Shown piece after piece: positions 12,609-64,000 of a stretch of 64,000 nt of DNA (within the stretch, counting starts at the first letter, position 1; each line of letters opens with the position of its first letter). The position numbers and the translations under genes are program-made. Source of the DNA: Alloascoidea hylecoeti (lineage: Eukaryota); assembly GCA_001600815.1 (NCBI GenBank), contig BCKZ01000011.1:62001-126000 (forward strand), given 5' to 3'. The notes under the pieces are model-generated. The model worked only from the letters and a program-made list of their open reading frames with translations, had not been told where the DNA came from and did no database searches.

Positions 12609-12735
12609 TTCTTTCTGGATCTATAAATATTTGTGTTTAAAATAAGAGTATTGTCAGATGGAAGGTTAATGTTTTGAGTATATGCACAGTCACGTGCAGA
12701 TGTCTCACGACGGACAATAAATAAAAAAAGAAATG

Positions 12736-12822
12736 CTTCCCCGCCAGGGGTCGAACCTGGAATCTTTCGCTTGTGACCAATTTGAATCGTAGGCGAACGC
12801 CTTGCCATTGGGCCACGAGGAA
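12736..12822 (-). tRNA. tRNA-Arg(ACG) with 15-nt intron (12772-12786)
   Basis: The minus strand reads TTCCTCGTGGCCCAATGGCAAGGCG-TTCGC-CT-ACG-A-[TTCAAATTGGTCACA]-A-GCGAA-AGATTCCAGGTTCGACCCCTGGCGGGGAAG. The cloverleaf stems pair, and a T-run Pol III terminator follows. Confidence 0.95.
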
Positions 12823-13211: not shown

Positions 13212-16200
13212 TTAAACCATAAAAGTAGCCTTTTCAGTCATTTCAATAATATTCATATCCCCACAAACATTTTTAAAATATTTATAAAACCATTTACTAT
13301 CATTTTTATTTTTATCATTTGAATTTAATGAATATATTGGTTTGATTATTGAACTTCCATGTAATTTAGGATAACTTTTTAAACTTAAAGGATCTAAAGA
13401 AATTAATAAATTATCCTTTCTTTTTTCAAATTGATTGAAAATAATCATTGATATTTTTAATTTATTATCATTCGAATCAATTTTAATATTAATTTTATAA
13501 ATTAATGATAAATCTTTAATTTCTTTATCTATTAATATAGCATGTCTCCAAATATTTTGAATTTTTTTAATTTGTTCATCACATGTTATACCAACTGGTA
13601 TAAATCCTAATAATTTAGATGCAAAAAATTGTAAAGGAATTGATTGATTTTCATTTTCATTATCAAGTTTTAAATCTAAAATTTTTGGATTTTTTTCTAA
13701 TGATATTGATATAATTAATCCTTCAAATAAATAATCAATGGATTTATCATTATTTAAATTTTTAAATATTAAACCAGTTATTGATGATAATAAATCATTT
13801 TTTAATTTCATTTTTAAAATATCATTTAATTTATAAATTTTATTTTTTTCATAAATTAATTCAGATTCTTTAATTTTAAATTTTAAATTTTCAATTTTTT
13901 CTTTATAATTTCCAATTTTATTCTTCAAATCATTATGAATTTTTTCATTTTTATTTAAAATTATTTGTTGTAATAATAATTCTTCTTTAATTTTTATAAA
14001 ATCTTTTCGAATTTTTATTAATTCATTAATATTAATATTTTTATATTGTTCTTTTAATAATTTTAATTTTGATAATTTTAGTTTTAATTCTTTGTTTTTA
14101 TCCTTTAAAATTTTAAAATTCTTTCCAATTTTATCCTCAAATTCATTCAATTTAATTTCATCATTTTTTAATAATTCTTCATTTTTATTAATTGCTATTA
14201 AAATACCATCAACCAATTGAGTTCTCCAATTATACCAAACCATTTTTGCTTGTTGTCTTGAATAATTTTTAATCATCATAAATTGTCCATTCATAATAAT
14301 TCTTGCAGAATTTGTTGATTGAAAGTATTCTTTAATTAATAATGGATTTTCTTCTAAAGTTTCTTCTTCCAATTTATTAAAATTTTTTTTACCATCTTTT
14401 AAATTTTTTTTTAATTCATTACATCCAAATTCAAACATTTCTAATAACGGTAATTGTTGAATTGCATTTGAATAATCAATTAAATTTGGTTTTTCTTTAT
14501 TATTAGAATTTCCTAAAATTGATGATGATACACCTTCAGAAACTTCTAAATCATCATAAAATTGTGCACCAATTGAATCCAAGAATGTATTTAAAGAAAC
14601 TGGAACATAATTTGATACTACTCTATTATTATTATTATTATCAGAAATTTCATCATCATCATCATCTAATGGTGCTAATTTGATTTTTTCAGTAACTGTA
14701 TTTAAACTTGGTGTATATAATCTTTCTAATTGAACTTTTTTAACTGATCTTAATGGTGTAAAAGCAGCAACATCATCTTCAGTTAAATGAGGTGGAGTTG
14801 AAATAGTTGGTGTTAATTGAACATCATAAACTTGTAAATTTGAAGGTAATTGTAAGGACTGTGATTTTTTTGGTGTTAAAGCTGAAATTCTATCTTGGAT
14901 TGTTTCATTATCTTTAAATTTATTATCTTTTTGTGGTGTTCTTTGGTTTGTAATAAAAGGACTAATATTTTTTAATGGACTTCTTTTTGGACTTTTAGAT
15001 TTTGATCTTGTTTTTTTAATTGGAGTATTTGTATTTGAATTTGTCTTTGAATTTGAATTAGATTCTGGTTGTAAATAATTTTCTGTTTTTAAATCTTTTA
15101 AAACATTAATAGGTCTATTTGAACTCATCATGGATAATCTTGATAATCTTGATTTTCTTCGACTAGTAGGACTTTCAGGAGAACTAATTTTCTTAGGACT
15201 TCGACTTTTTCTTGGACTTCGACTTTCCCTACTTGGAGATTCTGACAATTTTTGTTTTTTATTATTTGAATTCTGAATATTTGTTGGGCTTGGTCTTTTA
15301 TTACTTGATACTTTAGAAGGAGTCAGAACAGTTGTCATATCCATATCCATATCTTCATCATCTTCGTCATTAGAAACATAATTTGTTTTAATACTACTAA
15401 TAGCTTTCGTAACATCCATTGTAGTTTCCATTTCAATACTTTTATCATTATTTGATGTATTAATTGAACTAACAGCTCTTGTAACATTCATTGTCATATC
15501 CATATCACTTTCACTTTCACTTTCACTATCATTTTCGTTTTGAGAATTTTTATTTGAATTTGTGATTGATCCAAGAGCCATAGTAACTTCCATCATAGAT
15601 TCTTCTTCATTCTCACCTACAATAGATTTGATATTACCTAATGGTTTAGTTATATCCATTTCTTCAGCATCATTGTCATCTTCATGATTTGTTTGATTAA
15701 TGATCCCTCCAACTCTTGTAATATCCATTGTCATATCGTCGTCATCATCATCTTCTTCTTCTTCTTCTTCGTCATTAACATGTTTAATTGAGCCTCCAAC
15801 TTTGGTAATATCCATAGTCATATTATCATCATCATCTTCTTCTTCGCCATTAACATGTTTAATTGAGCCTCCAACTTTGGTAATATCCATGGTCATATTA
15901 CTTTCTTCCTCATCATTTGAAACTTTATTAATGGAACCACCTATTCTAGTAACATCCATAGTCATATAATCTTCATTATCTTCTTCTTCTTCTTCGACAA
16001 TTGATAAATGACGATTTAATTGAGGAACTATAGGATTAGTATTATTTTTAGATGATGAAGCATCTTCTTGTTCTAATGATTGTAAAAAACTTGATGAATA
16101 ATGTATTGTAGGAATTATTTGATTTATTTCAGAATCTTGTTTAATATTACTAGAAATAATTGTCATATCCATTGCAATTTCAGAATCATTACCTTCTTCA

Positions 16201-17039
16201 ACTGCTGCATTATTATTAGTAGTATTATTTAAAATTATTCCATTGACTTTTGTCATTTCCATTTCATTATCAGATTCTTCAACATGATCAATTCTACTAA
16301 TATTTTCACTGGTTTCATTAACTTCCAAATTTGATGTGAGTTGTGTACCAGTTTCTGTTAATTCCATTGATTCATCATCATCATCAAAAGATTGTTGCAT
16401 AATACTATTTGTTGACTCATCTATATCACTATCTTCTAAAGCTTCTACACCACCATCATCACTTTCAAAAGATTCATTGACATTACTTGATGTTGGAGTA
16501 AATAAAGGAGTATTTAAAGTATTATTTTCATTAGTTATTGATAAACTTGCCTTAATTCCAAAATCAGTATGCCTTCTAAGATTTGATTTTTTAATATTTG
16601 AAACAGCAGGAATTGGTGTTTTATTTGATGATGAGTTTGAATTTGAATTTGAAGTTGAAGGTTGAGCAAATGATATAGTTTCTCTTCTTCTTGGTTTTTT
16701 TTCTTGTTCTTTTATATGTTCTTGTAATTGAAAAGTATGTAAAGTGATTTCTGGAGCAAAACTAACTCTTCTTTTAACCCTACTTCCAAAATCAGTATTT
16801 GTAAAATTATCTTCATCATTTTCTTGTTTTGATGTTAAAACTGGCATGATTCCAGCAATAGTATGATTTTCATCTTTTAATAAAGGTTTTAAAATTCCTC
16901 TTGATGGAACTAAAGAAGATCTTGTACTTCTTCTTCTCATTGCTGTTGGTAATTTAGGAGGTGGAGCATTTGAAATTAATGAAAATAAATTCGGACGAGC
17001 AGGTTTATTTCCCTTTTCATTAATATTGTTATTTGACAT
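13212..17039 (-). CDS. SPC105: kinetochore scaffold Spc105/KNL1 (1275 aa)
   Basis: GILK and RRVSF PP1-docking motifs, ~13 MELT-like repeats (MELT, MEMT, MDIT, MDVT...) and a Spc7-type C-terminal region (SLNTFLD...F.DDL; LLEMFEFGC.EL; WYNWR) are present. Confidence 0.93.
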   Translation of the reverse strand: MSNNNINEKGNKPARPNLFSLISNAPPPKLPTAMRRRSTRSSLVPSRGILKPLLKDENHTIAGIMPVLTSKQENDEDNFTNTDFGSRVKRRVSFAPEITLHTFQLQEHIKEQEKKPRRRETISFAQPSTSNSNSNSSSNKTPIPAVSNIKKSNLRRHTDFGIKASLSITNENNTLNTPLFTPTSSNVNESFESDDGGVEALEDSDIDESTNSIMQQSFDDDDESMELTETGTQLTSNLEVNETSENISRIDHVEESDNEMEMTKVNGIILNNTTNNNAAVEEGNDSEIAMDMTIISSNIKQDSEINQIIPTIHYSSSFLQSLEQEDASSSKNNTNPIVPQLNRHLSIVEEEEEDNEDYMTMDVTRIGGSINKVSNDEEESNMTMDITKVGGSIKHVNGEEEDDDDNMTMDITKVGGSIKHVNDEEEEEEDDDDDDMTMDITRVGGIINQTNHEDDNDAEEMDITKPLGNIKSIVGENEEESMMEVTMALGSITNSNKNSQNENDSESESESDMDMTMNVTRAVSSINTSNNDKSIEMETTMDVTKAISSIKTNYVSNDEDDEDMDMDMTTVLTPSKVSSNKRPSPTNIQNSNNKKQKLSESPSRESRSPRKSRSPKKISSPESPTSRRKSRLSRLSMMSSNRPINVLKDLKTENYLQPESNSNSKTNSNTNTPIKKTRSKSKSPKRSPLKNISPFITNQRTPQKDNKFKDNETIQDRISALTPKKSQSLQLPSNLQVYDVQLTPTISTPPHLTEDDVAAFTPLRSVKKVQLERLYTPSLNTVTEKIKLAPLDDDDDEISDNNNNNRVVSNYVPVSLNTFLDSIGAQFYDDLEVSEGVSSSILGNSNNKEKPNLIDYSNAIQQLPLLEMFEFGCNELKKNLKDGKKNFNKLEEETLEENPLLIKEYFQSTNSARIIMNGQFMMIKNYSRQQAKMVWYNWRTQLVDGILIAINKNEELLKNDEIKLNEFEDKIGKNFKILKDKNKELKLKLSKLKLLKEQYKNININELIKIRKDFIKIKEELLLQQIILNKNEKIHNDLKNKIGNYKEKIENLKFKIKESELIYEKNKIYKLNDILKMKLKNDLLSSITGLIFKNLNNDKSIDYLFEGLIISISLEKNPKILDLKLDNENENQSIPLQFFASKLLGFIPVGITCDEQIKKIQNIWRHAILIDKEIKDLSLIYKINIKIDSNDNKLKISMIIFNQFEKRKDNLLISLDPLSLKSYPKLHGSSIIKPIYSLNSNDKNKNDSKWFYKYFKNVCGDMNIIEMTEKATFMV

Positions 17040-21159: not shown

Positions 21160-22785
21160 TATCTGTGCAGTTTGTGATTTGGTGATGGAGGTGAAGGAGA
21201 TTTTTCAACTCTACGATCCCCCAACACCCGTTGACCCAATTTTTATAAGTCCGAGTAATTCAAAAGGACCCGTCAAGATGGAACCTAGTGTGGCATGTGA
21301 CCACACGTGAGTATCACGTGCTGTGTGTATTTCTACAAAGATAAACCTTATGATCTTCAAACATATACCAGGTTCGATTTTAAATAATGATGATAAATTG
21401 CTTGATACTTCAATTATATTTCCGTTTTAAGTGTTAGTCTTTTGAGAATTGGTGAACAGACCCCCTTAACTTTTAAGTTTTGGAGCTGAGTTTACTATCT
21501 CATTAAACTATCAGTTATCTATGGTTATAAAAGGGATCATATTTAATTTGAATTTGAACCGAATTAATTAGAAAATTAGAAAAAATGAACTTGCTTGTAA
21601 TTATTACGTTAAGTTTGTTACATTCTTTACGTTTGAATTTTAAGAATTTCTTATAAAATTTGTAAATATGAATATCGTATGTTTTCATCCAGAAACTGAT
21701 CAATTGTATGAATTATTGTAACATCTTCAAAGGATTCTAGAATAAGAAAATAGGATGATTAATATAATATTTTCAATATTTAAGAACTTTAGGTAAACCA
21801 AATAGATAAAAAATTTTATTAGTAATGGAAATCTGGAAATTAACAAAAAATATAGATGACATGTTTCATTTGGATAGTATTATACTATCAGTAGTTCAAT
21901 TGATATTAATGACAAATGTTTGGTTTCGTAATAATCATATCATATTTTCGTTCGGAAATCAAGTGTTATTTAATCAACAGATGAATTACAGTTTACAAAA
22001 CATATAAAGTTGCGTTAATGATATCATACATTGTAGAAATTTTGGAGATCTAAGATCCTGGAATATTTAAATTGGTGAAATAATCTCATAAATAAATAAA
22101 TATATAATTCTACAAATTCTCTTTTATGTGATTATAAACTTGAAAGCTCAAATTCAGATTAAAGATGATTCCATATATCATAAATAACTGTGTCATTTGA
22201 AATTCATCAGCTTTTATATAGCTTAAATTCCTTCTAGAATACTAAAATGCACCCGAAATCTTAATTACTATAGCTACTATCTCACTAAAAAGTAGAAATA
22301 TAGACAGCTATACCGGTAAAGTTTTATGCATCCAATTATAGTACACAGAGTGTAACCATTAGATCGGAATAAAACAATAATAATATAAGTGAGTGAGTGT
22401 AACCTAAATCCAAGCAGTTATGGGCCTCATTCTTTTCTTGTTCTAATGTACTAAAATATATAAAAACATCCAACTGGAAAGAAAATCAACAACCAAATAC
22501 TACAATCACTAAAAATGCTACGTCTTTTAAATATATATGAATAGTCAAGAAACTCAACAACGATTTCAAGTTATGGTAAACAAATAAAAATAAACCAAAT
22601 AAGAGAAATTCAAAATTTATTATCAAAAATATACCAAATGAGTTTCCATTCAGCTAATGATTGTGATCTAAAATATTTGTATAAATTTTCCTTTTCTCAA
22701 CACCTCAAAATCATTCATTAAATACATTTTATTTAGGATATCAAGTTAAGATAGAGAAAAATATTTTTCAATAATTAATGCATAT

Positions 22786-22941
22786 TGTTTGATATTTGAC
22801 ATCTTTGAAACTTAGTTATTATCTGTTTATTTTATTGTATATATATCTGTCTTATCAAAACAAGGAATGGCTAACTATATAGTAACTACTGCATATTGAT
22901 CCTTGCTTAATATAGAATCCAACAAAACTTAATACCCAACA
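22786..22941 (-). repeat. 156-bp copia LTR (left, minus orientation)
   Basis: TGTTGGGTATT...AATATCAAACA on the minus strand, directly preceded by the purine tract AAGGTAAAGAAGGAG. Confidence 0.88.
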
Positions 22942-24415
22942 CTCCTTCTTTACCTTATTCATATCTATTTTATAAGGTAACTTTTTAGTTTATTAAATGT
23001 GTTTCCACTTACTGGTTTCGTAAGAATATCTGAATAGTTATCTTCAGTTGGCACTTTCTTGATAGATTCAAAGTGTTGATTCAAAAACAACCTGTTACGA
23101 ATATATTTTATTCTTGTATCAATGTGATAATTTCTTCCTTTAGATACTGGATTAGTTGCCCATTTAATTACCGTAGAATTTTCTTCCATATAATCAATTT
23201 TTATATCTTCACCATAGATAAACTTCAATAAATTCATTAATTTATCAATCATTTCACAAGCGTAGTCTAATGCTAGTAACTCTGATTCAGATGCAGACTT
23301 TGTTATAGCAGATTGTCTGCGGGACGCCCATCCTATAATGTTTCCATTAACCATTAAAATAACACCAGAAGTGCTTTTGCGACTAGAATCTCCCGATTTG
23401 TCCGAATCTACAAAAACTGTTACTTTATCTTCAATGTTATCTTTATTATAAGATAATACGATAAATGTGCATTCAAGTATGCATTACGGAAATCGAAAGT
23501 CGCCATTTTTAACTTTCTTTGGAGTCCATAATTTATCAATAATAACAGAGCTTGAATAGATAATGTTGAAGATGTGTATTGATGATTTATGTCGGTGATT
23601 TCTTTGTCACCTCTCACCACGCAACGTGCCTTTGCCACCTTATGTTCCCCAGAAATCTTCTCCGTCAATACCCATTGTGTAGGTAATATGTTTATCTCTG
23701 TAGGTACCTTTTTAATTTCCATTGGTTCCCAAACATTTAAATCCTCAATCGTTTGTAATTCATCCAACATAGCAAACTTATACTTATCAAATATTGCATT
23801 TGATTTCTGCTCTGTAGCAATCACTAACCCAATGCTTTCACTTGCAGCTTTACGTATGCTTCTAGTAGTCCTCCTATTACCAGTGAATGGAATTCTGACC
23901 TCATTGTTGTCCATTCTCAGATTTCGAGGTATCATTTCATCCTCTACTCCTTCTAAGATATTGTTTTCATTATCTGCCGTATTCTTCAATACATCTTCAT
24001 CACCATATAAATCTTGATGAACAATAATATCTTCAAAATTCTCACTTCCCGTAGTTTCAACATGCTGAGACATTTCATTCATGTTGTTTAATATTGGAAC
24101 ATTGATATCTTCATGCTCATGTACTAATTCATCATCTGAATTATCAATATCTTTATCAATTTTTTTACCATTAAATAATTGGTAGTGTTTAGTGTGGAAC
24201 AACCTGCCATTGTCTAAAGGAAGAAATTATCACATTGATACAAGAATAAAATATATTCGTAACAGGTTGTTTTTGAATCAACACTTTGAATCTATCAAGA
24301 AAGTGCCAACTGAAGATAACTATTCAGATATTCTTACGAAACCAGTAAGTGGAAACACATTTAATAAACTAAAAAGTTACCTTATAAAATAGATATGAAT
24401 AAGGTAAAGAAGGAG

Positions 24416-24571
24416 TGTTGGGTATTAAGTTTTGTTGGATTCTATATTAAGCAAGGATCAATATGCAGTAGTTACTATATAGTTAGCCATTCCTTGTTTT
24501 GATAAGACAGATATATATACAATAAAATAAACAGATAATAACTAAGTTTCAAAGATGTCAAATATCAAACA
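24416..24571 (+). repeat. 156-bp copia LTR (right, plus orientation)
   Basis: Identical by eye to the left LTR, with TG..CA ends and the PPT at 24401-24415. Confidence 0.88.
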
Positions 24572-25168
24572 CATATTAAATATGGAAACTCATCGTCAAA
24601 AGGATTACCGATTTATCCAAGTAATCCTTCGATGACTGATTAATCTTTAAGTTATAACTTATTAACACTCTTGTACCATATTTCTCGGATTTAGAAAGAT
24701 CCACCAGGTCAAAGTCTCAATAAGTACAACGATGAATACAACAATGAAGATTAAAGTTTTAAAGTTTTGTAACACAACCACAGAAAAATGTTGACATATG
24801 AATTTTGAGACTGTTAGTGATTGTGACGAACGAGCTCAAGTCGGACTTGATATCGATTAATATTCATGGTCCTATTAAAAGAATTAAAAGAATTTAAAAA
24901 GTTGTCAATTCAAAAGGACAGATAAAAGATTCTCCATGCTTAATATGGCTTTAATGATAGAGGTGATAAAGGTCTTAATTCCTACTTTGATAGCCATATT
25001 TCTGATATACTCATATTAATGAATATTACTATTTTTATGGATTTTTACATCCATATTATTACTATCTAGGTTTATATTATTCATTAGAGTACAAAAAAAA
25101 ATTCATAGCAAACATTTATTTGAAACAATCCTAAGCCAACACAATATCCTACAGTAGTGTTAAAACTA

Positions 25169-27034
25169 TTACTCTACAGTTTCTTTATATCCAGGAGGAT
25201 ATACTGGTACTCCATCACGCCATTTGATATTTAGCTTATCGTCCTTATCAAGCCCAATATTTAATCCTTCATTGCTGACATTCAACCTTCTTGTAAATTC
25301 CAACTCATAAAATCTTGATAAGTAACACGATTGAAAATTCGGAACCAAAGCAGAAGTAAAGGAGGGAATCTTAATGTTTAAAACTTTTTCATAAATGGTT
25401 TTTTCTGTTTCCGGATCGTAATGGGATTTCCATTCATTCCAACCAATATCCTCTTTGTAACCAAGTTTACCATCGTCAAATCCAGTCAATATTAAGGGGT
25501 TTTCCGAATCAAATTTCGCATTACTACCAACAATATCCTCTATATCTGTAACTTACCTGATCTCATATGCTAGAGGGTATTTCCTTAAAATCTTATATAT
25601 GTTTAAAGATGATTTAGACATACCTATGATGGTATGAACTTGTAAGTATGGTTTCACTAATGTAATAAGTGGTGGGGTCTCTGGTACTCCATCTATTATT
25701 TTTGGAGTATAAAAAACGAACTTCAAAGGAAATGCTAAAAATTTCTTGGCATTGTTAATCATTCTCTTATAAGATTTATATGTTGAAGAAAGATCAAAAT
25801 ATCCCTCCGATATCGTTAATGGTGAAAATAGTACGAGGTGTAATCACTTTAATCGTTGATATGTCCATGGATTGATTCGAAGTCGAATAAATAATCGGTT
25901 TATCCGCCAACCATTTAAGTTGTTTATGAAAATATAACTGTCCTGTTTTAGAATCTATGGAATGAATAGTTTTAAATTTCATATGTTCATTTGAATTTCC
26001 ATAGATATTGGTAGCTGATACATATTTAGTTATATCGAGATATGACTGCAGTATGTAAGAAGGAGGTACAGGATATGAAGGGATGATTTCGAATGAATGA
26101 AATGCTTTTATTGATTCGGATGGTTCTGTGCGGCCTGCTAATAGATCAGAAACTGTAACATAATTCTCGAATCTAGCTTCAATATAATAATTATTGCTAA
26201 CCTTAACATGACGTGGTTTACATGGGCGGATAATATCCCATTTAAACTCATTAGATAAACTGTTAATCGCAGAGGTACGACACATATTAAATTGCGACCC
26301 TGTGTTGGAATTATTGATGTTAGTCACGAGATGATGGTTACTGTGCAATTTCTGCTGGAGATTCTTTGGTATAGGAATGGGAAAGTGATGCATTTGAGAA
26401 TCATAGATGTCAGATCTAAAATGGCCTTTGAAACTAGGAGGTAAACAGTTATGGAGCTGATTATCTAGACACGGTTCTGTTGGATATATATTACACTCTT
26501 AGAACAGTTCACTAAAGAGTCGATTGGCTTTTTGGCGCAACTGGGAGAACAGGCACTTTGAACTTTAACAGGTTCCAATAATTTCTCGGGAATAACAAAG
26601 CTAAAATTTATCGTATATGTCTTGCCAGCTAAAACAATATTACGTTTGCGACCGCTAGTTCCAGAATTCTCCTTTGGTGTTGTTTCATTATAATTTTCCA
26701 TTAAGCTAAAACAAATATCATATCCATTAGGAAATCCAAATGTTTCTAAGCAGTATTCGTATTTACTGATATCTCCTTTCATACATAGTGTAAAATCATC
26801 AAATAGAAATGAAGTTTTAGGAACTAGGGTAACTCACCCGTTAATAGTTTTATCTGGGATATAAAATATTCTTTCGTTTTTGAAAAAAATATTAAGCTCT
26901 GTGGCAGACGGTTTTCTCAATCTAAAGGCACTTCTTGGGCTTATTGTCTTAGTCCTACCATTGATAATACTTAAACCCTCAGTATATCAGGATGTACTTA
27001 TAGAACTGGGGTCAAAAGGCAATGACTTCTTCAT
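25169..27034 (-). pseudogene. Bul1-like alpha-arrestin (Rsp5 adaptor) pseudogene, copy 1
   Basis: It has an N-terminal FYIPDKTING*VTL..F.FDDF....G, C..N.LH..LPPSF, a C-terminal LVPNFQSCYLSRFYEL and PPxY motifs (PPSY, PPGY). Lesions are in-frame TGAs at 26989 and 26836, frameshifts and a 93-bp insertion. Confidence 0.7.
26478..26570 (-). mobile_element. 93-bp mini LTR-like element with 5-bp TSD GGTTC
   Basis: It reads TGTTAAAG...ATCCAACA on the minus strand, with GGTTC at 26473-26477 and 26571-26575. Removing it plus one TSD restores the frame KLLEPCLDNQLHNCLPPSF. Confidence 0.9.
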
Positions 27035-27197
27035 TAAGGAATTTAAAAAAAGGAGAATTAGTCCTGTTAGAATATTGTTTCGAGCGGAATAATATTAGTC
27101 CAAAACACAAAATTTTTTCTTCTCTCTAAGCAAAATATTTCGAAACCTTAATTTTAATCCTACTTGTTCCCTGCGTTTCAGTAGATTATATTTAAGA

Positions 27198-27410
27198 TGA
27201 GAGCAACTAAATAAGCTTAGAAACATTTTATTATTGCCACTTCTGGAAACTGAAACATTGAAAAATTGGATACTACATTGGTATGATTAGAATAGAAGCA
27301 ATTAAATGTAAAAAGAGAGCTCAAAGGTTTTCCACTTTTGGGAGAGGGCAATCAGTAAAAATTAATCTGACAATTATCGAATGTCAAAATAACCTATACT
27401 ATGTGCTTAG
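27198..27410. repeat. ~200-bp non-coding block shared with 57868-58072, upstream of Bul1-like copy 1
   Basis: Shared colinear segments are GAGCAACT, AGCTTAGAAACATTTT, TGCCACTT, AGAATAGAAG, AAAAGAGAGCTCAA, ATCAGT.AAAATTAATCTGA and AATAAC. Confidence 0.8.
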
Positions 27411-29184: not shown

Positions 29185-29369
29185 TTTGAGTTCTGTTTCA
29201 AAATAGAAGCTATAAAGCGGATAATTTTAAAAGGGGAATAAAAATAAGGAAATCGAATGACATTGTGGTTGTGTTTAATTTTATATGGTAGCTTCTGAAT
29301 ATGCATATAACGTTTAAACCAAAGTAATTTATTGACGACTACTCTTAAATCAGAGTGTCAAGCCAGCTT

Positions 29370-30833
29370 GATAATTTCTGTTTTTTATTAATTTATCTCG
29401 TGTAACTAATTTGTTGGGGTTGGTCTTTTATTATTTGAAATTTTAGATGGTGTTGAAACAGTTGTAATATTCATTGTAACTTCCAATTCAATATCATTTA
29501 TTAATTGAACTAACATCTATTGTCATATCCATATCATTTTTACTTTCACTTTCACTATCATTTCCAGTTTCATTTTCATTTTCATATTTAGAATCTTTAT
29601 TTGAATTTGTGATTGATACAAGAGCTATAGTAGCTTCTATCATATATTCTTCTTCATTTTCATTTACAATAGATTTTATATTACTTAATGGTTTAGTTAT
29701 ATCCATTTCTTCAGCATCCTTATTATCTTCATTATTGGAGTGATTGATAACTCCTCCAACTCTTGTAATATTCGTTTTCATATTATCATCATCTTCATCA
29801 TCAATATGTTTAATTCAGCCTCCAACTTTGGTAATATCCATGTACATATTACTTTCTCCCTCGTTATGATTTGAAACTTTATTAATGGATCCACCAATTC
29901 TAGTTACATCTATAGTAATATCATCATCATCATCTTCATCATCATCATCAAAAGATTGTTGCATAATATTATTTGTTGATTCATCTATATCACTATCTTC
30001 TAAAGCTTCAACACCACCATCATCACTTTCCAAAAATTCATTGACATTACTTGAAGTAGAAGTAAATAAAGGAGCATTTAAAGTGTTATTTTCGTTAGTT
30101 ATTGATAAACTTGCTTTAATTCCAATATCAATATGACCTCTAAGATTTAATCTCTTTTAGGATTTGAAACAGGATCCGGAATTGGTGTGTTATGAGAAGT
30201 TAAAGTATGAGAAAAAGATAAAGTTTTTCTTCTTGGTGTGTTTGCTTGTTCTTTTACGTGTTCTTGTAATTGAAAAGTATGTAAAGTGATTTCTGGAGCA
30301 AAACTAACTCTCCTATCAATCTTACCCCCACAATCAGTATTTGTAAAATTTCTCCATCTTCTTGTTTTGAAGGTAAAATGGGTATAATCCCAGCAGTACT
30401 ATGGTTTTTATCTCTTGTTGAAACATTACTTAAATATAATTTAAAAAAGAAAGGTGAACTAACCACAATAATAACCCTCCAGATACTTGTTTATACCAAA
30501 ATTCAATAGCCCCGTAACCTAAATAAGCAATACTCATTTTAACTCATATATTCAATACAGACTCAAGTTAGGTGTAATAGTCAATCAAAGATTTCTTCTT
30601 GATCTTTTTTGGAAAAAAAGGGTCTTTATTAAATGCCACAATTCCGGAACTTATTAGTGTTGGAGGCAACACTAGGACACTCTTATTAAAGGTTTTAAAA
30701 TACTCTTTATGGAACAGAAGAAAGATCTTGTACTTCTTCTTCTCATTGGTTTTCGTAATTTGGGAGGTGGAGCATTTGAAATCAATGAAAATAAATTTAG
30801 ACGAGCAGGCCTAGGCTTATTTTCCTTCTCATA
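29370..30833 (-). pseudogene. partial duplicated SPC105 pseudogene (N-terminal half)
   Basis: It is colinear with SPC105 (NLFSLISNAPPPK, VSFAPEITLHTFQLQEH, ESDDGGVEALEDSDIDEST, MDITKVGG, EMDITKPL). It carries stops, frameshifts, internal deletions and a solo-LTR insertion. Confidence 0.93.
30416..30679. mobile_element. 264-bp solo-LTR-like insertion with 4-bp TSD CTCT
   Basis: It reads TGTTG...GGACA, with CTCT at 30412-30415 and 30680-30683. Excision restores PLIRDKNHS, aligned with SPC105 PLLKDENHT. Confidence 0.82.
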
Positions 30834-31903
30834 ATTTTTAGTCAAACAAAGTAATCTATTGAGAACTTACTATAATTCTTCATTTGTTATATTTATTAGA
30901 TTAGTAGTAATAATTGAACGACATTATTATTATCTCTCTTGTTTAAACTGGAAAAATTTGTAAATAGTTAACTTTATTTGACAATATTACTGTAATGTTC
31001 TAAATTCTCGGGGGAAGGGTGATTATCACCAGTACTGTTTTGTTGTGAAGTTTGTCCAGCCTTCTTATCTAGATCCATTAGTGAAATCAAATGATCTTTT
31101 TTCATAATTATATGATATATTTATTACAGTTGTCTTTACTGGCAATAATGGTAAAGAAAAGGAGTTGGAGTGAAAAAAATCCTACCTTAATAATTTTTTT
31201 TGACCTTATCATCATGTTAGAGATTTGTTCGCATCAAAATTAGAGTTTCTCATCCGACACCATGATTCGAATGGGTTTCGTTTTGGTTTCGGATCTCTGG
31301 ATATTTCGATGGTTATATATTATAATAATAATAGCTGGGTTACTAGCAAGTTTAAGGTGTCTGTTTAACAAATTCTTCAATGATTCTATCATTGTTAAAT
31401 AAGAAATGATTATAAAAGAAAAGATATATCATTTAAATGTATCATTATTATTTGACTAGATTCCATTATAGGTTGGGATTATATTTGTGAAGCCAGAAAA
31501 AATAATTCAGAAATAGAGCAAGCTACCTAAAATATGTAGAGCACCATTTCAAGAAGTAGGTAGGCAAAGTGAGGATAACTTTGGGCAGATTGTATGTACC
31601 GGCAGAATGATACACGGCCCCAATTATTAAAGCCTAAAGGGCCTAAACACAATCAAGTAAAAACACTCTCTGTTATACGTTGTAGATATATAGGACTTCT
31701 CTTCCTCACATATAATACAGTCGTTGGAAAATTTATTCAATTGCAATTGTCATATTCCAAACTGTAAGTTCAAATTACAACTAGATAAAAAAAAGAATCT
31801 AAATATATTAATTTGCTATGTTATATTATAAGTTAAATACATAATTAATTAGTATACCGGTAATATTAATATTAATAGCACAAAACATTAATTAATTAAT
31901 TAA

Positions 31904-37543: not shown

Positions 37544-37594
37544 TGTTAAAGTTCAAAGTGCCTGTTCTCCCAGTTGCGCAATATATATCCAACA
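37544..37594 (+). mobile_element. 51-bp mini LTR-like element with 5-bp TSD ATAAT
   Basis: It comprises the first 35 bp and last 16 bp of the 93-bp element, with ATAAT at 37539-37543 and 37595-37599. It lies 8 bp past the AHP1 stop. Confidence 0.85.
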
Positions 37595-54376: not shown

Positions 54377-55966
54377 ATGAATATAATGACACAAAAATTA
54401 AACAAAAAACAATCAAAGAGTAAAAAATGGAAAGAAAAATTAAAGAAGAAAAAATTAAATAATTTTAAAATATTAAAAATTAATAATAATAATATGTCAA
54501 AAGAGTGCAATGGTATTATTGATGAAAAGAAATATGAAATTGTTAAACAAAATTTAACTATAAAACAACATTTTATGAAAGATATTGAAAGATTATTAAA
54601 TAAATCAACAAGTACAAATGGAAATACAGATGAAGATTATTATGAGATATTAAAGGATCCTATGATTATACAAAATTTGAAATGTGTGGATAAAAAAATT
54701 GGTTCAAAGTTTAAATCATCTTATACCATTGGTACTAAACCTGAGTCTGAGATTATTGATCATACTTCAACTAATAATCAACATTCTTTAACGCGGCATG
54801 AAAATGACTTAATATCCTCGGTCATTAACTCAACTGATGATTCTGATATAACTAAAGAACAATTATTAAATCAACAAGTTTCCTTAAAAAGGAAACGTTC
54901 ATTAAATAATTCTAATGATAATGAAGATGAAAATGAACAATTAAAGAAGAAATTACAAACAACACCATGGATTAAAGGTATCTCTCATCATTCACGTTTA
55001 GAAATAACAGATTGGTTAACATATGAAATTAAAAACTTTGTTCATTATATATCACCAACAAAATCTGAAATTGATAACCGTAACGATGCATTTAATAGAG
55101 TTAAAGATTGTATTGAATCATTTTGGAATGATTGTAATGTATTAATGTTTGGTTCATTTACAACAAATTTATACCTTCCTACATCAGATATGGATTTAGT
55201 GGTTATTTCATCAAATAATAATTTAAATGAAAAATATAATAATATACAATTAATTTATTCATTGTCATCATATTTAAAAAAAATTAAAATTTCTTTAAAA
55301 ATTGAAGTTATTAAAAAGGCAAAAATTCCAATTTTAAAATTTAAAGAATTAAAATCAAATTTAAATTTTGATATATCATTTGAAAATAAATCAGGTTTAA
55401 TTACATCAAATACAATTAATAATTGGATTTCTCAAACATCAGGACTTTTTGAAATTACATTATTAATCAAATATTTGATTTCAATTAAAAAATTTAATAT
55501 TGTCAAAGATGGTGGTATTGGTGGATTTTCAATAACTTGTTTAGTTTATTCATTTTTAAAATTACATCCAAAAATTCAAACAAATTCAATTAATATTGAA
55601 AATAATTTAGGTGTTTTATTAATTGAATTTTTAGAATTTTATGGAAATGTTTTTCCATATGAAAAAATTGGAATTAATATTTTAAAAAATGGAAATTGTA
55701 ATTATATTATTAAAAAAAATTCATATATTGAATGTTCAGAGCGTGGATTTCTTATTATTGACCCAAATGATCCAACTAATAATATTAGTAAAGCAACTCA
55801 TGCTGTTGGAAGAATTACAAAAGCTTTTTCAATAGCTTTTAAACGTCTTACTGAAAGATGTTTAGAATTAAATAATGCTACTTATAAAGATAGAATTGGT
55901 GAGTCTATTCTTAGTAGTATTATTAAAATTAAAGGGCAACCAAGAGAATTTGTCATTAATGAATAA
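54377..55966 (+). CDS. PAP2: non-canonical poly(A) polymerase Trf4/Trf5 (529 aa)
   Basis: DWLTYEIKNFV.YISP, FGSFTTNLYLPTSDMDLV, AKIPILKF, GGIGGFS, NLGVLLIEFLEFYG and IDPNDPTNNISK are present. Confidence 0.9.
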   Translation: MNIMTQKLNKKQSKSKKWKEKLKKKKLNNFKILKINNNNMSKECNGIIDEKKYEIVKQNLTIKQHFMKDIERLLNKSTSTNGNTDEDYYEILKDPMIIQNLKCVDKKIGSKFKSSYTIGTKPESEIIDHTSTNNQHSLTRHENDLISSVINSTDDSDITKEQLLNQQVSLKRKRSLNNSNDNEDENEQLKKKLQTTPWIKGISHHSRLEITDWLTYEIKNFVHYISPTKSEIDNRNDAFNRVKDCIESFWNDCNVLMFGSFTTNLYLPTSDMDLVVISSNNNLNEKYNNIQLIYSLSSYLKKIKISLKIEVIKKAKIPILKFKELKSNLNFDISFENKSGLITSNTINNWISQTSGLFEITLLIKYLISIKKFNIVKDGGIGGFSITCLVYSFLKLHPKIQTNSINIENNLGVLLIEFLEFYGNVFPYEKIGINILKNGNCNYIIKKNSYIECSERGFLIIDPNDPTNNISKATHAVGRITKAFSIAFKRLTERCLELNNATYKDRIGESILSSIIKIKGQPREFVINE

Positions 55967-56449
55967 TTGAATTAGCTGCAATTTTTTATAGCACAAGCTT
56001 CGAAATTTGATATTATAAATATGTGAAAATTAAAAAGCTATTCGATATATCATAGAGAATATAAAGTTATATCGTAAATTACTATTAAAAAGCTCCCAAT
56101 TATTACAAATTATCAGTATAGAAATATGCTTTCTAACAATGATAAAACATTTGTTGCATTTACATAAAAACTTGTGGTATAAATTATATTATAAGCTATA
56201 GGTTTCTATGTTTTTTAAGCAATCCCACTCAATCTTTTCACATCTCGAGCTCGGTGACTCGTCTCTACCACAATTGGTAAAAAGTTCCTTCTCTGTTGAA
56301 GCATATACATAAGATGGATTCGAAGAATTACCTTTTGATTTTAATACAACATCAATTTAAAGAAAATCGATAAATATTGGTCCCTGAAAAATTTAAAGAA
56401 AAAGAATTATAATTTATTTGTGATCCGGCTGAAGTATTATTACGATTAT

Positions 56450-57776
56450 ATATTACAATTATGAAAGTATTTCGATTTTATTGATGTTAATGTGTTTTCA
56501 ACAAATCTTAGATTGGAAACTGGAGTTTGAGATTTCAATTCAATTCTGAATTCCAATTTTTAAAATCTTGAAAAGAAACAACTTTGAAAATTTGGAACTA
56601 AATTAGAAGCGATTGAAGGTATTTAATATTTGCACTTTGTTCATATTTGATCACTAGACCCCCTCGATTATATTGCAATGTCCATTGACTCCAGATATTT
56701 TCATTACATCCACGTTTATTAGGTGCAGCTGTGTTAGTGGGCTTCTCACTACCTTCAATGGATCCGGCCATGGGGTCACATTTCTTATCAATAACTTTTC
56801 TGTTTTGGGGTCAATAGTATAAAGTGTTTTAAATTTCATATCCTTATTCGCAGATATATGGGCGTGATCCATTGATACATATTTTTCAGTATCGAAAGAT
56901 AGCTTCAAAGGTATGAGGGGAAGCAACAGCTCAATATGAAGGTATGAAGCCATGAGATCCCTTCAAATATGTATGGCCGCTGGTACATGTTACTGTTCGA
57001 TTAAGTTGTATTTCAAACTTACTAAAGATGTATTTACAAACTTTTTTTCGATAATCGCTGCAATAGAATAAGTGACATGAATATCAAACTAAGGATTAGT
57101 GTAAGGATATCTGTTCCTAAATTATTGGTAAAGATTCCTTGTTGACCTCTAAAGATACGACACAAAGCGCGCTGCGTTAGTATAGGTACTTTGTATTTCA
57201 ATTGCTCAGCTGGAATACTCCTTGTTTCTCGATGTCCCACAGGCCTATAATATAAATTAGTCTCCGTGGAATCACGGGAATCATTATTATAAGACAAATA
57301 TGGGGGTGGGATAATCATGAACACAAGGAGGCAGACGGTTACGGAGCAAGTTATCTTTGCATTTGTATCCTGATACCCTTTCAGGAATATAGAAGCTAAA
57401 AGATATAATATACTTCGTACTAACTAAAGCTATATTGTCTTCGGGGTCTGTTGCTGTATCTGGGAATGTATCATCGAAGTTGTGGAATAATATACCATCG
57501 AGTCCTTCCGTTTTGCCGACAAGTCCTTTTATACCTAGTAAAAAATTATTATAAGAAAAAGTGGCTTCGGGTAATAGGGTAAATAATATCATCTTTTTTG
57601 AATATAAAATGGTTTTTCATTTTCGATGCAGACGATGAGCTTTGCTTTTATTTGTTCTTTGTTGCATTGTAAGATATAATGACACCAAGGATTACTAATT
57701 TTTTCCCACTCCAACAGTTCCTTACTCCAACAGTTCCTTACTCCAACAGTTCTTTGTTCTCAGGAATGTCATCCAT
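56450..57776 (-). pseudogene. Bul1-like alpha-arrestin pseudogene, copy 2
   Basis: Fragments homologous to copy 1 (SFSFYIPE..CKDN..NRLPP; MKFKTLYTIDPKT..L; IPSIASNLVPNFQSCFFSRF) with stops, frameshifts and a deletion. Confidence 0.68.
57708..57752. repeat. 16-bp tandem repeat (ACTCCAACAGTTCCTT) x~3
   Basis: Read directly; it disrupts the 5' end of Bul1-like copy 2. Confidence 0.88.
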
Positions 57777-57867
57777 GATAAGATATTGTAGAAAATTTGA
57801 CCGTTTTAAAAGAGTTATAGTTGACACTGAAACATATAAAACTATATTTTTTACCTATATGTCAGGT

Positions 57868-58072
57868 TGGGAGCAACTCATCAGCTTAGAAACATTTTTT
57901 ACTGCCACTTTTGGACGCTGCAGCATTGAGAAATTACATCGTTATGAATAGAATAGAAGTATTCCAGCGTGAAAAGAGAGCTCAATATTTTCCCACCTTT
58001 GAGGAACGTTTATCAGTTAAAATTAATCTGATAGTTGTAGAGAATCACAATAACTTGTATCTGTGCACTAAG
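57868..58072. repeat. second copy of the ~200-bp block upstream of Bul1-like genes
   Basis: Colinear with 27198-27410. Confidence 0.8.
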
Positions 58073-60798: not shown

Positions 60799-61659
60799 AG
60801 TTCATCTCTTTACGGAATCAAATTAAGGTATGTCGCAAAATGTACATTTTACATAAAAGATGTGAACATTTGTGTCTGGAAAGCTTTACCTGTTGCTATA
60901 AAGCTTGCAATACCACTTTTTTCAATACGCGCATGAGGATTGCAAGTTATAACAATATTCATAATATAACTTATATTAATTTTTCAATGTAATCACGATT
61001 TAAATATTATTATTAAACTTATGTAACATCATAATTAGATTTTCCCCATATACTATAAACTACCATTGTTATTTACATCTATATATTAAGTTTTCATGGT
61101 AAAATTTAGTATAATATACACTTTGAAATTTTATGATGTTGATTAATAAATAGGTTAATAAGACTATTTAAATTAAAAACATTTAACTTATATATATTTC
61201 CTATTATGATTCAAAGAGATTTATTTGGTGGCTAGAAGATTTTGATTTAAGAAATAAATACAATGATAATAGGACCTATAAATGATAGTAGATTTAACAA
61301 ATATAAAACCATTTGCAACCAACTTTTTTTTAAGTAACTTTATACTTAAGTTTGCTCAACTTCAGATTAAAGATGATTCCATAATCATTTATAACCAATA
61401 ATCATCATGGATATACCGGTACCCGCTGACCTTGGCTAGGGTTAGGTACCGGTGATTATTCCTCTCACTTGTGACTCCTATTCAACTGCATATTTTTGTA
61501 AATGATTCTAGTCTATATATCATCATATATTGCATCTAAGAATGCTCACAAGAAACCAACAATCAATATATTTCTAATGTATAAAACTGGAAAATTTAAA
61601 ACATTCATACTTGTAACACTCTAAAATATTAAGTTAAATTTGTCTTAATCAAAATCATA

Positions 61660-62232
61660 CTTTTTCCAATCGTTGGTGATTACATTACTTTTCCCTTGAA
61701 GTTCATCTACACCCCAACAACAATTGATGGAGTACTGCAGCCTCCACCACTTATTACTGCGTTAGAACCATATTTAAAAATTCATAATATTATTGTTACT
61801 GCAAGGTCTTTGTACCAAATATTTAAGAACTCAAGAGAATACTCTCTAGTTGATCAGAACCGGGATATATTAAAGAATATTATTGATGAGAAATGTTACT
61901 CTACAGTCGGATGCTCGAACTCTGGTGGTTACGATATGTCAACTTNCTCGGCTGGTAGGCGTGGATGTGAACTTGGAAATGATAAACTATGGAGTCAATG
62001 GACACAATATGATTTGGAAAGTCAAGAAACTAAATATGAACGAACTATAAATATTAAAATACCTTCAATCACTTCCAACTTATCACCAAATTTTCAATCT
62101 TGCTACTTTTCAAGATTTTACGAATTGGAATTTAAAATTGAATTGAGATCTCAAACTCCTTTCCCCAAAGTAAGCATCATTGAAGAAACTTATAGTTTAC
62201 AACATGCTATAAGCTATATTGTGTATATGTAA
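61660..62232 (+). pseudogene. Bul1-like C-terminal fragment, copy 3
   Basis: FPLKFIYTP.TIDGV..PPPLIT and IKIPSITSNLSPNFQSCYFSRFYELEF are present. No ATG or N-terminal half was found upstream. Confidence 0.65.
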
Positions 62233-63349
62233 CAAAATGTGAAATAACTAGTATACGTCATATTTGATGTATTGATGATAATTGTAATTTACGATATAAC
62301 TTTATATTATCTATTATATATTGATAAGCTTCTTGATTTTCACAAATGTATGAATCAAAGTTCAAAGTTTGTGTTAATGACAGCTGATTCAATAGTCCGA
62401 TTTAGATTGATAATACATAACAGATATTATTGGTTATGTTTTAATTTTAATAATATTCCCAATAACAGACTCCACTACTATATTTCTAAATATTACTATT
62501 TGATTCTAAATATAAAAAGACGATTAAAAGTCATATAAAATGCTTTTGTGATTTTTCCAACGTTAACATCGTTTGTTATATATAAACATGTATGGAATAT
62601 TTAAATGAGAGGTTATACTTAACTTATATATCGAAACCAATCTATTATTATACTTCAATATATATCCTCTACTTTTCTTAATTTATTTACTTTATTAACA
62701 TGTTTGATACAGAAATGACAGAAGTTAACAGTACTATTTACTCTCAGGTGATAAGCAATTCACATATATCATGTTAATGATATAGGTATAATATATCAAA
62801 TCGGAAATATATTACTATAATGAATAAAAGAAGCACAAATGAATATAGATAAACAAATTGTGGGTTAGATGAAGCAATGTGGGTTAGGAATAGTAAGTTA
62901 AATATAAAATTAAATATATTACTAATAAAATATTAAAGCTTCTGATAATTCCTAATAAATTATATATATATAAGCCATCTTTTGTATAATGGAAGATGAA
63001 GGGAGAAAAAAATAAAGTTATGAATATATTAAGTTAAATAGGCAAAACCTAATTTCTTTTATACTAGAGGTTTTTAATTTGATAGTAAGTACTGAATAAC
63101 CTTTTTTTTCTAAAGAAATTACTATCAAGGAAGAAAATTCCAAATCCTGGAAGAATAAAATAACTTTTTAGATATAATGTTCGAATAAAAAGTTATAATC
63201 ATGACCAATGAGCTCCATAGACCAACTGACAAGTCTTTATAAATCCCATTTTCTTTTCCTAGAACTTCATTGACTTGTGTTTCATATATCTTATTTAATA
63301 TATAGCCCTCTACACATGAAGAGAGACCCTTCATTACGAACTATGGGAC

Positions 63350-63795
63350 ATGGACCTCATCCAGGGAAATAATTACAATATTAATTCCAATTGCAATGCT
63401 TCAGGTGTTCCTGATAACTCAATCGAACACCTGGATATTTCTGATTTGAACGCGTTCAGAACTCAAACCCCAACTCCAAATCTTGNNNNNNNNNNNNNNN
63501 NNNNNNNNNNNNNNNNNNNNNNNNNNNNNNNNNNNNNNNNNNNNNNNNNNNNNNNNNNNNNNNNNNNNNNNNNNNNNNNNNNNNNCAAGAAACTAAATAT
63601 GAACGAACTATAAATATTAAAATACCTTCAATCACTTCCAACTTATCACCAAATTTTCAATCTTGCTACTTTTCAAGATTTTACGAATTGGAATTTAAAA
63701 TTGAATTGAGATCTCAAACTCCTTTCCCCAAAGTAAGCATCATTGAAGAAACTTATAGTTTACAACATGCTATAAGCTATATTGTGTATATGTAA
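63350..63795 (+). CDS. possible Bul1-like gene spanning the assembly gap, copy 4
   Basis: An ATG-initiated ORF runs into the gap, and the sequence after the gap encodes the same Bul1-like C-terminus as copy 3. Continuity across the gap is unproven. Confidence 0.35.
63486..63585. other. assembly gap (100 N)
   Basis: Run of N. Confidence 1.
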
Positions 63796-64000
63796 CAAAA
63801 TGTGAAATAACTAGTATACGTCATATTTGATGTATTGATGATAATTGTAATTTACGATATAACTTTATATTATCTATTATATATTGATAAGCTTCTTGAT
63901 TTTCACAAATGTATGAATCAAAGTTCAAAGTTTGTGTTAATGACAGCTGATTCAATAGTCCGATTTAGATTGATAATACATAACAGATATTATTGGTTAT
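63586..64000 (+). repeat. exact direct copy of 62023-62437
   Basis: Identical by eye over 415 bp, offset 1563. Confidence 0.95.

What the first reader, a model, noticed from the sequence alone, without database searches (positions are those of the whole stretch)
22781..24576. Copia derivative with INVERTED LTRs and a genuine TSD: an integrated 'copy-back' cDNA and potential hairpin-RNA silencer
Seen: CATAT|TGTTTGATATT...AATATCAAACA|CATAT. Both ends of this 1786-bp unit are the U5 (3') end of the same 156-bp LTR. They lie in two 359-bp arms (RNase H end + PPT + LTR) that are identical by eye and inverted around a 1068-bp spacer. There is no 5' LTR, PBS, gag, protease or IN core. Known: copia elements have direct LTRs, copia integrase makes 5-bp TSDs at TG..CA ends, and inverted-terminal retroelements (DIRS) use tyrosine recombinase without such TSDs. 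Inference: minus-strand synthesis went LTR->RH->RT->IN and then switched onto minus-strand DNA, copying back to U5, like copy-back defective-interfering viral genomes; integrase then accepted a U5/U5 substrate. Read-through transcription would fold into a 359-bp dsRNA stem, analogous to maize Mu killer, which could silence the parent family if RNAi is retained. Identical arms imply it is recent.
Basis: partly seen in the sequence, partly recalled or inferred. Interest (0 to 1): 0.85.

Follow-up and report, generated by a model that had tools for sequence, protein, structure and literature searches.

The report
Copia insertion with two U5 ends
A broken copy of a yeast jumping gene was inserted with the same end sequence on both sides, most likely because its reverse transcriptase doubled back while copying; it cannot move again, and nothing yet shows that it silences its relatives.

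Summary
The structure is confirmed: a 1786-bp unit (22786-24571) with perfect 359-nt inverted arms (RNase H end, PPT, 156-bp LTR) and a CATAT duplication (chance 0.002-0.006). The left junction and the switch point rest on the window alone; no empty site was found. The parent is a Ty1/copia family of about 20 copies in a yeast-like fungus. Best reading (0.62): minus-strand synthesis skipped, then switched onto minus-strand DNA at a 6-of-8 micro-match, giving a U5/U5 cDNA that integrase inserted. Rivals: two cDNAs each joined by U5, or rearrangement after insertion. Both LTRs point outward and there is no PBS, so the unit cannot transcribe its own hairpin or move again; silencing needs read-through and is untested. 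My paper searches found no U5/U5 copia insertion, but strand-switch products inserted by Ty1 integrase are known. The scan noted other fold-back insertions elsewhere in this genome and one in another (unchecked).

The parts
22781..22785 (.). Left target-site duplication CATAT
   Evidence: chance 0.002-0.006
22786..22941 (-). LTR, 156 bp, U5 end at 22786; the ordinary 3' LTR of the sense arm; its promoter points out of the element, leftward
   Evidence: LTR limits supported by family contigs that start at 24415-24417 and end at 24571 in the mirror arm; promoter direction inferred from LTR orientation
22942..22956 (-). Polypurine tract next to the LTR
   Evidence: mirror of 24401-24415
22965..23461 (-). 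End of RT and RNase H coding region, open to its stop
   Evidence: 32% identity, E 2e-23 to the RNase H region of copia polyprotein P0001; 92% to P0005
23462..23463 (.). Deletion junction: 682 nt of RT (227 codons plus 1 nt, with YVDD) missing, 2-nt overlap, frameshift
   Evidence: loose ends in family contigs; P0003 aligns 1-26 and 254-283 on either side; both estimates give 682
23464..23719 (-). N-terminal part of copia RT
   Evidence: Pfam RVT_2, E 4.1e-08, model 5-99 of 244
23720..24212 (-). Acidic IN-RT linker and probable last residues of integrase; no Pfam integrase hit, label inferred from position
   Evidence: only a weak GvpH hit below cut-off; family contigs continue past 24214 into other sequence
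24207..24214 (.). Strand-switch point; 2-nt exact overlap (24213-24214) inside a 6-of-8 imperfect match to the RNase H sense strand at 23143-23150
24213..24392 (+). Inverted second copy of the RNase H 3' end with its stop
24401..24415 (+). Second polypurine tract
24416..24571 (+). Second LTR, U5 end at 24571, where a 5' LTR's U3 end would normally be; promoter points out of the element, rightward
   Evidence: U5 joined to flank in contigs of X1, X2, X4
24572..24576 (.). Right target-site duplication CATAT

Best explanation
A one-off, dead insertion made by an error in reverse transcription. Shown: both ends are U5, there is a 5-bp duplication, the arms are identical, the spacer is a piece of the family's pol with a 682-nt deletion, and the switch point has a short imperfect match. 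Inferred: in a virus-like particle, minus-strand DNA was started and transferred normally (U5, R, U3, PPT, RNase H), jumped 682 nt along the RNA on a 2-nt overlap, ran on to the IN C-terminus (about 1430 nt in all) and stalled. Its 3' end then paired through 8 nt (6 matches) with minus-strand DNA at RNase H and copied it back to U5. The template was either its own strand (fold-back, then a second priming at the new R-U5 end) or a stalled 360-nt minus strand from the second RNA of the dimer, the two strands priming each other; the products are the same. The linear DNA had TG...CA at both ends, so integrase inserted it with the usual 5-bp duplication. It has no PBS, no 5' R and no inward promoter, so it is not replicated further. 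Any hairpin RNA would be a by-product of read-through.
For: Ends exact at TG/CA with matching 5-mers. Right end is U5 in 3 of 4 runs laid. Family contigs continue past 24214 and past 23462/23463 into parental sequence, so both joints are rearrangements with 2-nt overlaps. The extra similarity lies on the long strand's side: 6 of 8; 3 of 1358 positions on that strand reach 6 of 8, 2 of them with the terminal TC. The family tolerates short-repeat jumps: about 16-19 copies share a 339-nt RNase H deletion between 8-nt direct repeats. Two junctions of one type in one copy fit one faulty round of copying (inference). Ty1 integrase inserts foreign DNA with 5-bp duplication if it ends TG...CA, and composite insertions were put down to strand switching (PMC2939329, introduction and passages). 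Ty particles hold two RNAs (PMC4974528, passages).
Against: The 8-nt window was chosen after seeing it; at 6, 10, 12 and 16 nt the site ranks among 19 of 1360, 6 of 1356, 8 of 1354 and 16 of 1350 positions with the terminal TC, and the duplex is only -3.0 to -4.7 kcal/mol and was not predicted to pair at the 3' end. Two-nt overlaps also fit host end joining (own knowledge). The switch point and left junction are known from the window assembly only. The window differs from the family majority at 5 spacer sites with no depth left for its letter in any of the 4 runs; if these arose after insertion, about 3.4 arm differences are expected and 0 are seen (P 0.035), so either they came from the donor copy or the arms were homogenised, which would weaken 'same template' as an argument.
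Confidence: 0.62

Rival explanations
1. Two separate cDNAs were each joined by their U5 ends at one staggered cut, and host end joining trimmed and fused their inward-pointing halves at the 2-nt overlap.
For: Gives the same structure and TSD. One-ended integrase events finished by host enzymes, with viral DNA joined to further viral DNA in either orientation, are described for HIV and ASLV (PMC5041404, passages).
Against: Needs two U5-only joins at one site and loss of both 5' halves; the RT deletion would be a separate event. In that paper one-ended events mostly leave large duplications or deletions, not 5 bp. The window's LTR letter at 24466 is a minority one (other letter in about 37 of 45, 43 of 49 and 39 of 52 copy-equivalents), so identical arms need both cDNAs from one subfamily.
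Confidence: 0.15
2. A normal direct-LTR element inserted first (hence the TSD); later a replication template switch or conversion replaced its 5' half (5' LTR, gag, PR, IN core) with an inverted copy of its own 3' 359 nt.
For: The LTR's terminal inverted repeat (9 of 11) offers a re-entry point at the very end; it would also explain identical arms beside a more diverged spacer.
Against: Needs two switches, one within the first 4 nt of the LTR, since position 5 already has the U5 letter and the flanks share no complementarity.
Confidence: 0.13
3. Assembly artefact, or two unrelated insertions brought together by the assembler or by a deletion.
For: The family has about 18-24 copies and 45-52 LTR equivalents, enough to confuse short-read assembly; only the right junction was checked against other data.
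Against: Right junction is U5 in 3 of 4 runs. Two unrelated U5 ends would match in their 5-mers with chance 0.002-0.006. The two internal joints have only 2-nt overlaps, too short for an assembler to join by overlap (inference). No N in or near the unit.
Confidence: 0.07

Closest known systems
Ty1/copia LTR retrotransposons of budding yeasts (Ty1; PMC2939329 introduction read)
   Same: RVT_2-type RT before RNase H, PPT next to a TG...CA LTR, 5-bp TSD.
   Different: LTRs inverted with U5 outward at both ends; no 5' LTR, PBS, gag, PR, IN core; RT active site deleted.
Ty1 'composite elements' and non-Ty fragments inserted by Ty1 integrase (PMC2939329, passages and introduction)
   Same: Aberrant DNA attributed to erroneous priming or strand switching, inserted with 5-bp duplication at TG...CA ends.
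   Different: Those were laboratory events with transformed DNA; in the passages seen none is described as U5/U5. This one is natural and made only of element sequence.
Defective HIV-1 proviruses with inversions (PMC9278108, passages) and aberrant one-ended integrations (PMC5041404, passages)
   Same: Rearranged cDNA with internal deletion and inversion that still integrates; 1.3% plus 1.3% of proviruses in that set had inversions.
   Different: The passages seen describe internal inversions and asymmetric direct LTRs, not a second 3' LTR in place of the 5' LTR with a clean 5-bp duplication.
DIRS-1 retrotransposons (PMC7192593, passages)
   Same: RT and RNase H sequence between inverted terminal repeats.
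   Different: DIRS use a tyrosine recombinase, have non-identical repeats and an internal complementary region, and replicate in this form; none applies here.
Mu killer of maize (PMC3440606, abstract only)
   Same: Partial inverted duplication of a transposon with two copies of one end; hairpin would need read-through from flanking DNA.
   Different: Mu killer derives from a DNA transposon and is shown to silence; here transcription, small RNAs and RNAi genes are untested.
Palindromic siRNA loci of Naumovozyma castellii (bioRxiv 10.1101/2019.12.12.873604, passages)
   Same: Inverted-repeat loci in a budding yeast; they gave 74.1% of classified siRNA reads in wild type, so such a locus can matter where RNAi is kept.
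   Different: Those loci are shown to be transcribed and diced; their origin is not addressed in the passages seen.

Membership tests
Ty1/copia-derived sequence | RT of the RVT_2 (copia) type followed by RNase H | tested here: met
   RVT_2 E 4.1e-08; parent-type P0003 RVT_2 E 1.7e-18; RNase H E 2e-23 to P0001
Ty1/copia-derived sequence | Integrase upstream of RT | tested here: inconclusive
   No integrase hit in the 164 residues before RT; label inferred from position
Ty1/copia-derived sequence | TG...CA LTR with adjacent PPT and 5-bp TSD | tested here: met
Intact or non-autonomous LTR retrotransposon (mobile unit) | Two LTRs in direct orientation | tested here: not met
   inverted; right end U5 in 3 of 4 runs
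Intact or non-autonomous LTR retrotransposon (mobile unit) | PBS after a 5' LTR | tested here: not met
   Both LTRs are preceded inward by a PPT and followed outward by the TSD
Intact or non-autonomous LTR retrotransposon (mobile unit) | Several copies of the same unit with different TSDs | tested here: inconclusive
   None in the window; no genome held; no high-depth joint at the switch point listed, whereas the family's common RNase H deletion is listed at 16-19 copies
DIRS retrotransposons | Tyrosine recombinase gene | tested here: not met
   The whole unit is accounted for by pol fragments, PPT and LTR
DIRS retrotransposons | Non-identical inverted repeats with internal complementary region | tested here: not met
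   Arms identical; self-comparison shows no internal repeat of the ends
Hairpin-RNA silencer (Mu killer type) | Long inverted duplication of element sequence | tested here: met
   359 nt, 100%; predicted RNA duplex -590.6 kcal/mol
Hairpin-RNA silencer (Mu killer type) | Transcript through both arms | not testable with these tools
   No RNA data for this organism were available to lay; both LTRs face outward, so an outside promoter is needed
Hairpin-RNA silencer (Mu killer type) | siRNAs, active Dicer and Argonaute, silencing of the parent in trans | not testable with these tools
   No genome held; no small-RNA data

The most novel reading that the evidence does not exclude
In this yeast the copia reverse transcriptase often doubles back on minus-strand DNA and integrase accepts the symmetric products, so retrotransposition itself keeps planting hairpin loci. 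Where such a locus is read through and RNAi is kept, it makes siRNAs against the LTR and RNase H end shared by about 20 family copies: a retrotransposon that writes its own silencer in one step, and a possible origin for palindromic siRNA loci of budding yeasts. Unchecked scan notes on several other fold-back insertions in this genome are the lead for the 'often'.
Probability: 0.12. Interest if true: 0.78.

Novelty: new variant of a known kind. Interest (0 to 1): 0.45.

Why it matters
It is a natural record that a copia integrase completed a normal two-ended insertion on a substrate with U5 at both ends, and that reverse transcription errors can plant long perfect inverted repeats in a genome. 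LTR finders that require direct repeats would miss such units or file them as DNA transposons with terminal inverted repeats. If the hairpin is transcribed in an RNAi-positive host, it offers a one-step route from an active retrotransposon to its own silencer; that part is untested.

Tried and rejected
Whole genome: none held, so no search for parent copies, other inverted units, Dicer or Argonaute. Runs: 10 listed, 6 with any share, no RNA holder listed; this says nothing on expression. I laid 4 of the 10 (X1, X2, X4, X5) on 23110-26109, which holds one arm, the spacer and the right flank but not the left flank. No listed contig spans 24212/24213 or 23462/23463, and in X4 the depth of bin 24210-24309 (57.3) is fully explained by two family contigs; contigs drop rare variants, the window's own letters are also missing at 5 spacer sites, and 238 pieces, 111 loose ends and 70 letter rows were not shown, so this is no evidence either way. 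X5 (share 0.15) has no cover of the flank. Empty-site probe in metagenome contigs: 0 hits; U5 24-mer in metagenome contigs and viral contigs: 0 hits, so the organism seems not to be held there and the blank is uninformative. Protein searches: longer relatives of RNase H gave 2 of 566 candidates, both distant; IN-linker/RT piece 0 of 1552; near lengths 1 of 546, P0003; no full-length parent polyprotein found (best 150 of 15340 include only P0005 as a close relative), so no tree was built. Folding the arm alone: z -0.84, no special structure. A sigma-70 scan on 15 bases was irrelevant. Papers: 'inverted LTRs'+retrotransposon+target site duplication 0 papers; 'inverted LTR'+retrotransposon 8 papers, listing seen, 2 opened; further searches (in one search none of the 15 listed held 'LTRs in inverted orientation'); 0 papers. 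PMC1170264, PMC86530, PMC112432 and PMC189273 (Ty1 plus-strand transfer, composite elements, integrase substrates) are not held; they and older retrovirus papers may describe such products. No supplements were read; those of PMC5041404 and PMC9278108 list provirus structures and may bear on novelty. Rejected: DIRS membership, MITE or DNA transposon (arms are pol, PPT and LTR), a fold-back library chimera (arms stop exactly at the LTR ends, flanks are unique).

Full report
Observation. The unit spans 22786-24571 (1786 bp). Its arms, 22786-23144 and 24213-24571, are 359 nt and fully complementary around a 1068-nt spacer; CATAT stands on both sides and complementarity stops at the first flank base. 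Each arm is the end of RNase H with its stop, a purine tract and a 156-bp LTR whose terminal inverted repeat matches at 9 of 11. A matching 5-mer has a chance of 0.0024 to 0.006 by three estimates from the flanks. It is the only long perfect inverted repeat in the window and no other piece of the element lies there. The host is an AT-rich yeast-like fungus: neighbouring frames hit Spc7, Rif1_N, PEX11, SecY and WD40 models; 'budding yeast' is my reading of that gene set. The unit lies between a ribosomal L36-like gene (E 0.0004, below cut-off) and a broken Bul1-like gene.

What the spacer is. On the minus strand it reads: about 164 codons without a Pfam integrase hit (taken as IN C-terminus and linker from position), the first 95 model positions of copia RT (RVT_2, E 4.1e-08), then a frameshifting joint at 23462/23463 straight into the RT end and RNase H (32% identity, E 2e-23 to copia polyprotein P0001). 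P0003, a Logan protein 87-88% identical on both sides of the joint, holds 227 further residues with YVDD. Protein and contig arithmetic both give a 682-nt deletion.

Other data. Ten runs were listed, six with any share of the words; I laid four on 23110-26109. Relative to flank depth, RT-side sequence stands at about 18-24 copy-equivalents, LTR at 45-52 and the middle of RNase H at 7-8 in X1, X2 and X4 (the tool warns that summed contig depth is no true copy number). About 16-19 copy-equivalents share a different deletion, 339 nt of RNase H between 8-nt direct repeats. Family contigs run on past 24214 and past 23462/23463 into parental sequence, which fixes both joints and shows 2-nt overlaps. 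In X1, X2 and X4 a single-copy contig begins with the last 30 nt of U5 and continues into the right flank with no other letter. These are three samples of three studies, one perhaps the window's source; 30 letters is one short of the tool's bar, but a direct 5' LTR would differ within them. The left junction, switch point and deletion joint were not verified outside the window, and no empty allele was obtained.

Mechanism. Read on the plus strand, the unit is minus-strand cDNA from U5 to the IN C-terminus (22786-24214), followed by a copy of that same strand from RNase H back to U5. The 3' end at the switch matches the RNase H sense strand at 6 of 8; 3 of 1358 positions on the strand do as well, but the window size was chosen afterwards, other sizes rank it among 6 to 19 of about 1355, and the duplex is weak, -3.0 to -4.7 kcal/mol. 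On the other side only the 2-nt overlap matches the parental IN sequence (loose end). This asymmetry fits the long minus strand acting as primer. Two routes give the product: fold-back on itself followed by new priming at the fresh R-U5 end, or mutual priming with a stalled 360-nt minus strand from the second RNA of the particle (two RNAs per particle: PMC4974528, passages). These steps are inference. Ty1 integrase inserts unrelated DNA with 5-bp duplications provided it ends TG...CA, and composite insertions were attributed to erroneous priming and strand switching (PMC2939329, introduction and passages), so acceptance of a U5/U5 end pair needs no new chemistry. I give this 0.62. Two cDNAs joined by U5 and fused by host repair (0.15) has precedent in one-ended HIV and ASLV events, which however mostly lack the short duplication (PMC5041404, passages). 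A later template switch in a normal element (0.13) could use the 9-of-11 terminal repeat but needs a switch within 4 nt of the end. Artefact or chance juxtaposition: 0.07.

Age. Zero differences in 359 nt allow up to 0.83% divergence. Five spacer sites have no depth left for the window's letter in any of the four runs; were they later mutations, 3.4 arm differences would be expected (P 0.035 for none). They may come from the donor copy, or the arms may have been homogenised by conversion or assembly. X4, an environmental sample with 2 other letters in 1369 flank bases, shares the right junction, so the insertion is not a laboratory accident.

Function. Both LTRs point out of the unit and there is no PBS or 5' R, so it can neither transcribe its own hairpin nor be copied again (from the sequence and the Ty1 cycle as described in PMC2939329). 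A read-through RNA would form a very stable stem (-590.6 kcal/mol), but must first cross an antisense LTR that holds TATATA motifs on both strands, which in yeast can end transcripts (own knowledge). Hairpin loci are major siRNA sources in N. castellii (74.1% of classified reads; bioRxiv 10.1101/2019.12.12.873604, passages), and Mu killer is proposed to work by read-through (PMC3440606, abstract), so the idea is reasonable. Transcription, small RNAs and RNAi genes could not be examined here. I put a working silencer at about 0.15.

Comparison and novelty. It is copia-derived but fails the tests for a mobile LTR element (direct LTRs, PBS) and for DIRS (recombinase, internal complementary region; PMC7192593, passages). 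Inversions with deletions occur among HIV proviruses (1.3% plus 1.3%; PMC9278108, passages). My searches showed no integrated U5/U5 copia unit with a clean TSD, but four key Ty1 papers were not held, subscription papers are missing and no supplements were read. Earlier scan notes report fold-back retro-cDNA insertions elsewhere in this genome (e1-7785073, e1-7785205, e1-7784457, e1-7784458, e1-7785085, e1-7785654) and one in another genome (e1-7239956); I did not check them and use them only as a lead for the novel case.

Verdict. Real structure, new variant of a known kind of aberrant cDNA insertion, dead as an element, silencing unproven. Interest 0.45; 0.78 if fold-back insertion proves recurrent and a source of siRNA (probability 0.12).

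Noticed in passing
run contigs laid on window 22999-23347 equivalent: Most family copies (about 16-19 copy-equivalents in X1, X2, X4) share a 339-nt in-frame RNase H deletion between 8-nt direct repeats; only about 7-8 keep the middle of RNase H. The family looks dominated by a defective subfamily.
   Followed up: partly
window 23749 and 24416 (joint in X2 and X4 contigs): A single-copy contig joins element sequence at 23749 to the start of a diverged LTR: probably an LTR nested, in opposite orientation, in another copy of the family.
   Followed up: no
window 23793, 26535-26570 and 37544-37579: A loose end in one X2 contig at 23793 is 27 nt identical to 26544-26570 inside the broken Bul1-like gene, so somewhere a Bul1-like piece is fused to copia linker sequence, both antisense: a possible RT switch from host mRNA. 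The same 36 nt stand alone, inverted, at 37544-37579.
   Followed up: partly
window 25169-27406, 55805-58066, 61554-63956: Three or more broken, diverged copies of a Bul1-like gene (Pfam Bul1_C, E 5.4e-06 for one piece) in both orientations.
   Followed up: partly
window 29369-30844 against 15243-17038: Decayed partial duplicate (76-91%) of the Spc7/Spc105 kinetochore gene, with stops, 14 kb from the intact gene.
   Followed up: no
window 62023-62437 and 63586-64000: 415 identical bases on either side of a 100-N gap (63486-63585): likely a scaffolding duplication.
   Followed up: no
run contigs at window 24415: All four runs hold a contig with the same non-family sequence of 255 or more letters directly before the LTR start, ending purine-rich: another insertion site or a second internal sequence using the same LTR.
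   Followed up: no
window 12735-12822: tRNA-Arg(ACG) gene, the only tRNA found in the window, about 10 kb from the insertion, so this insertion is not tRNA-adjacent.
   Followed up: no
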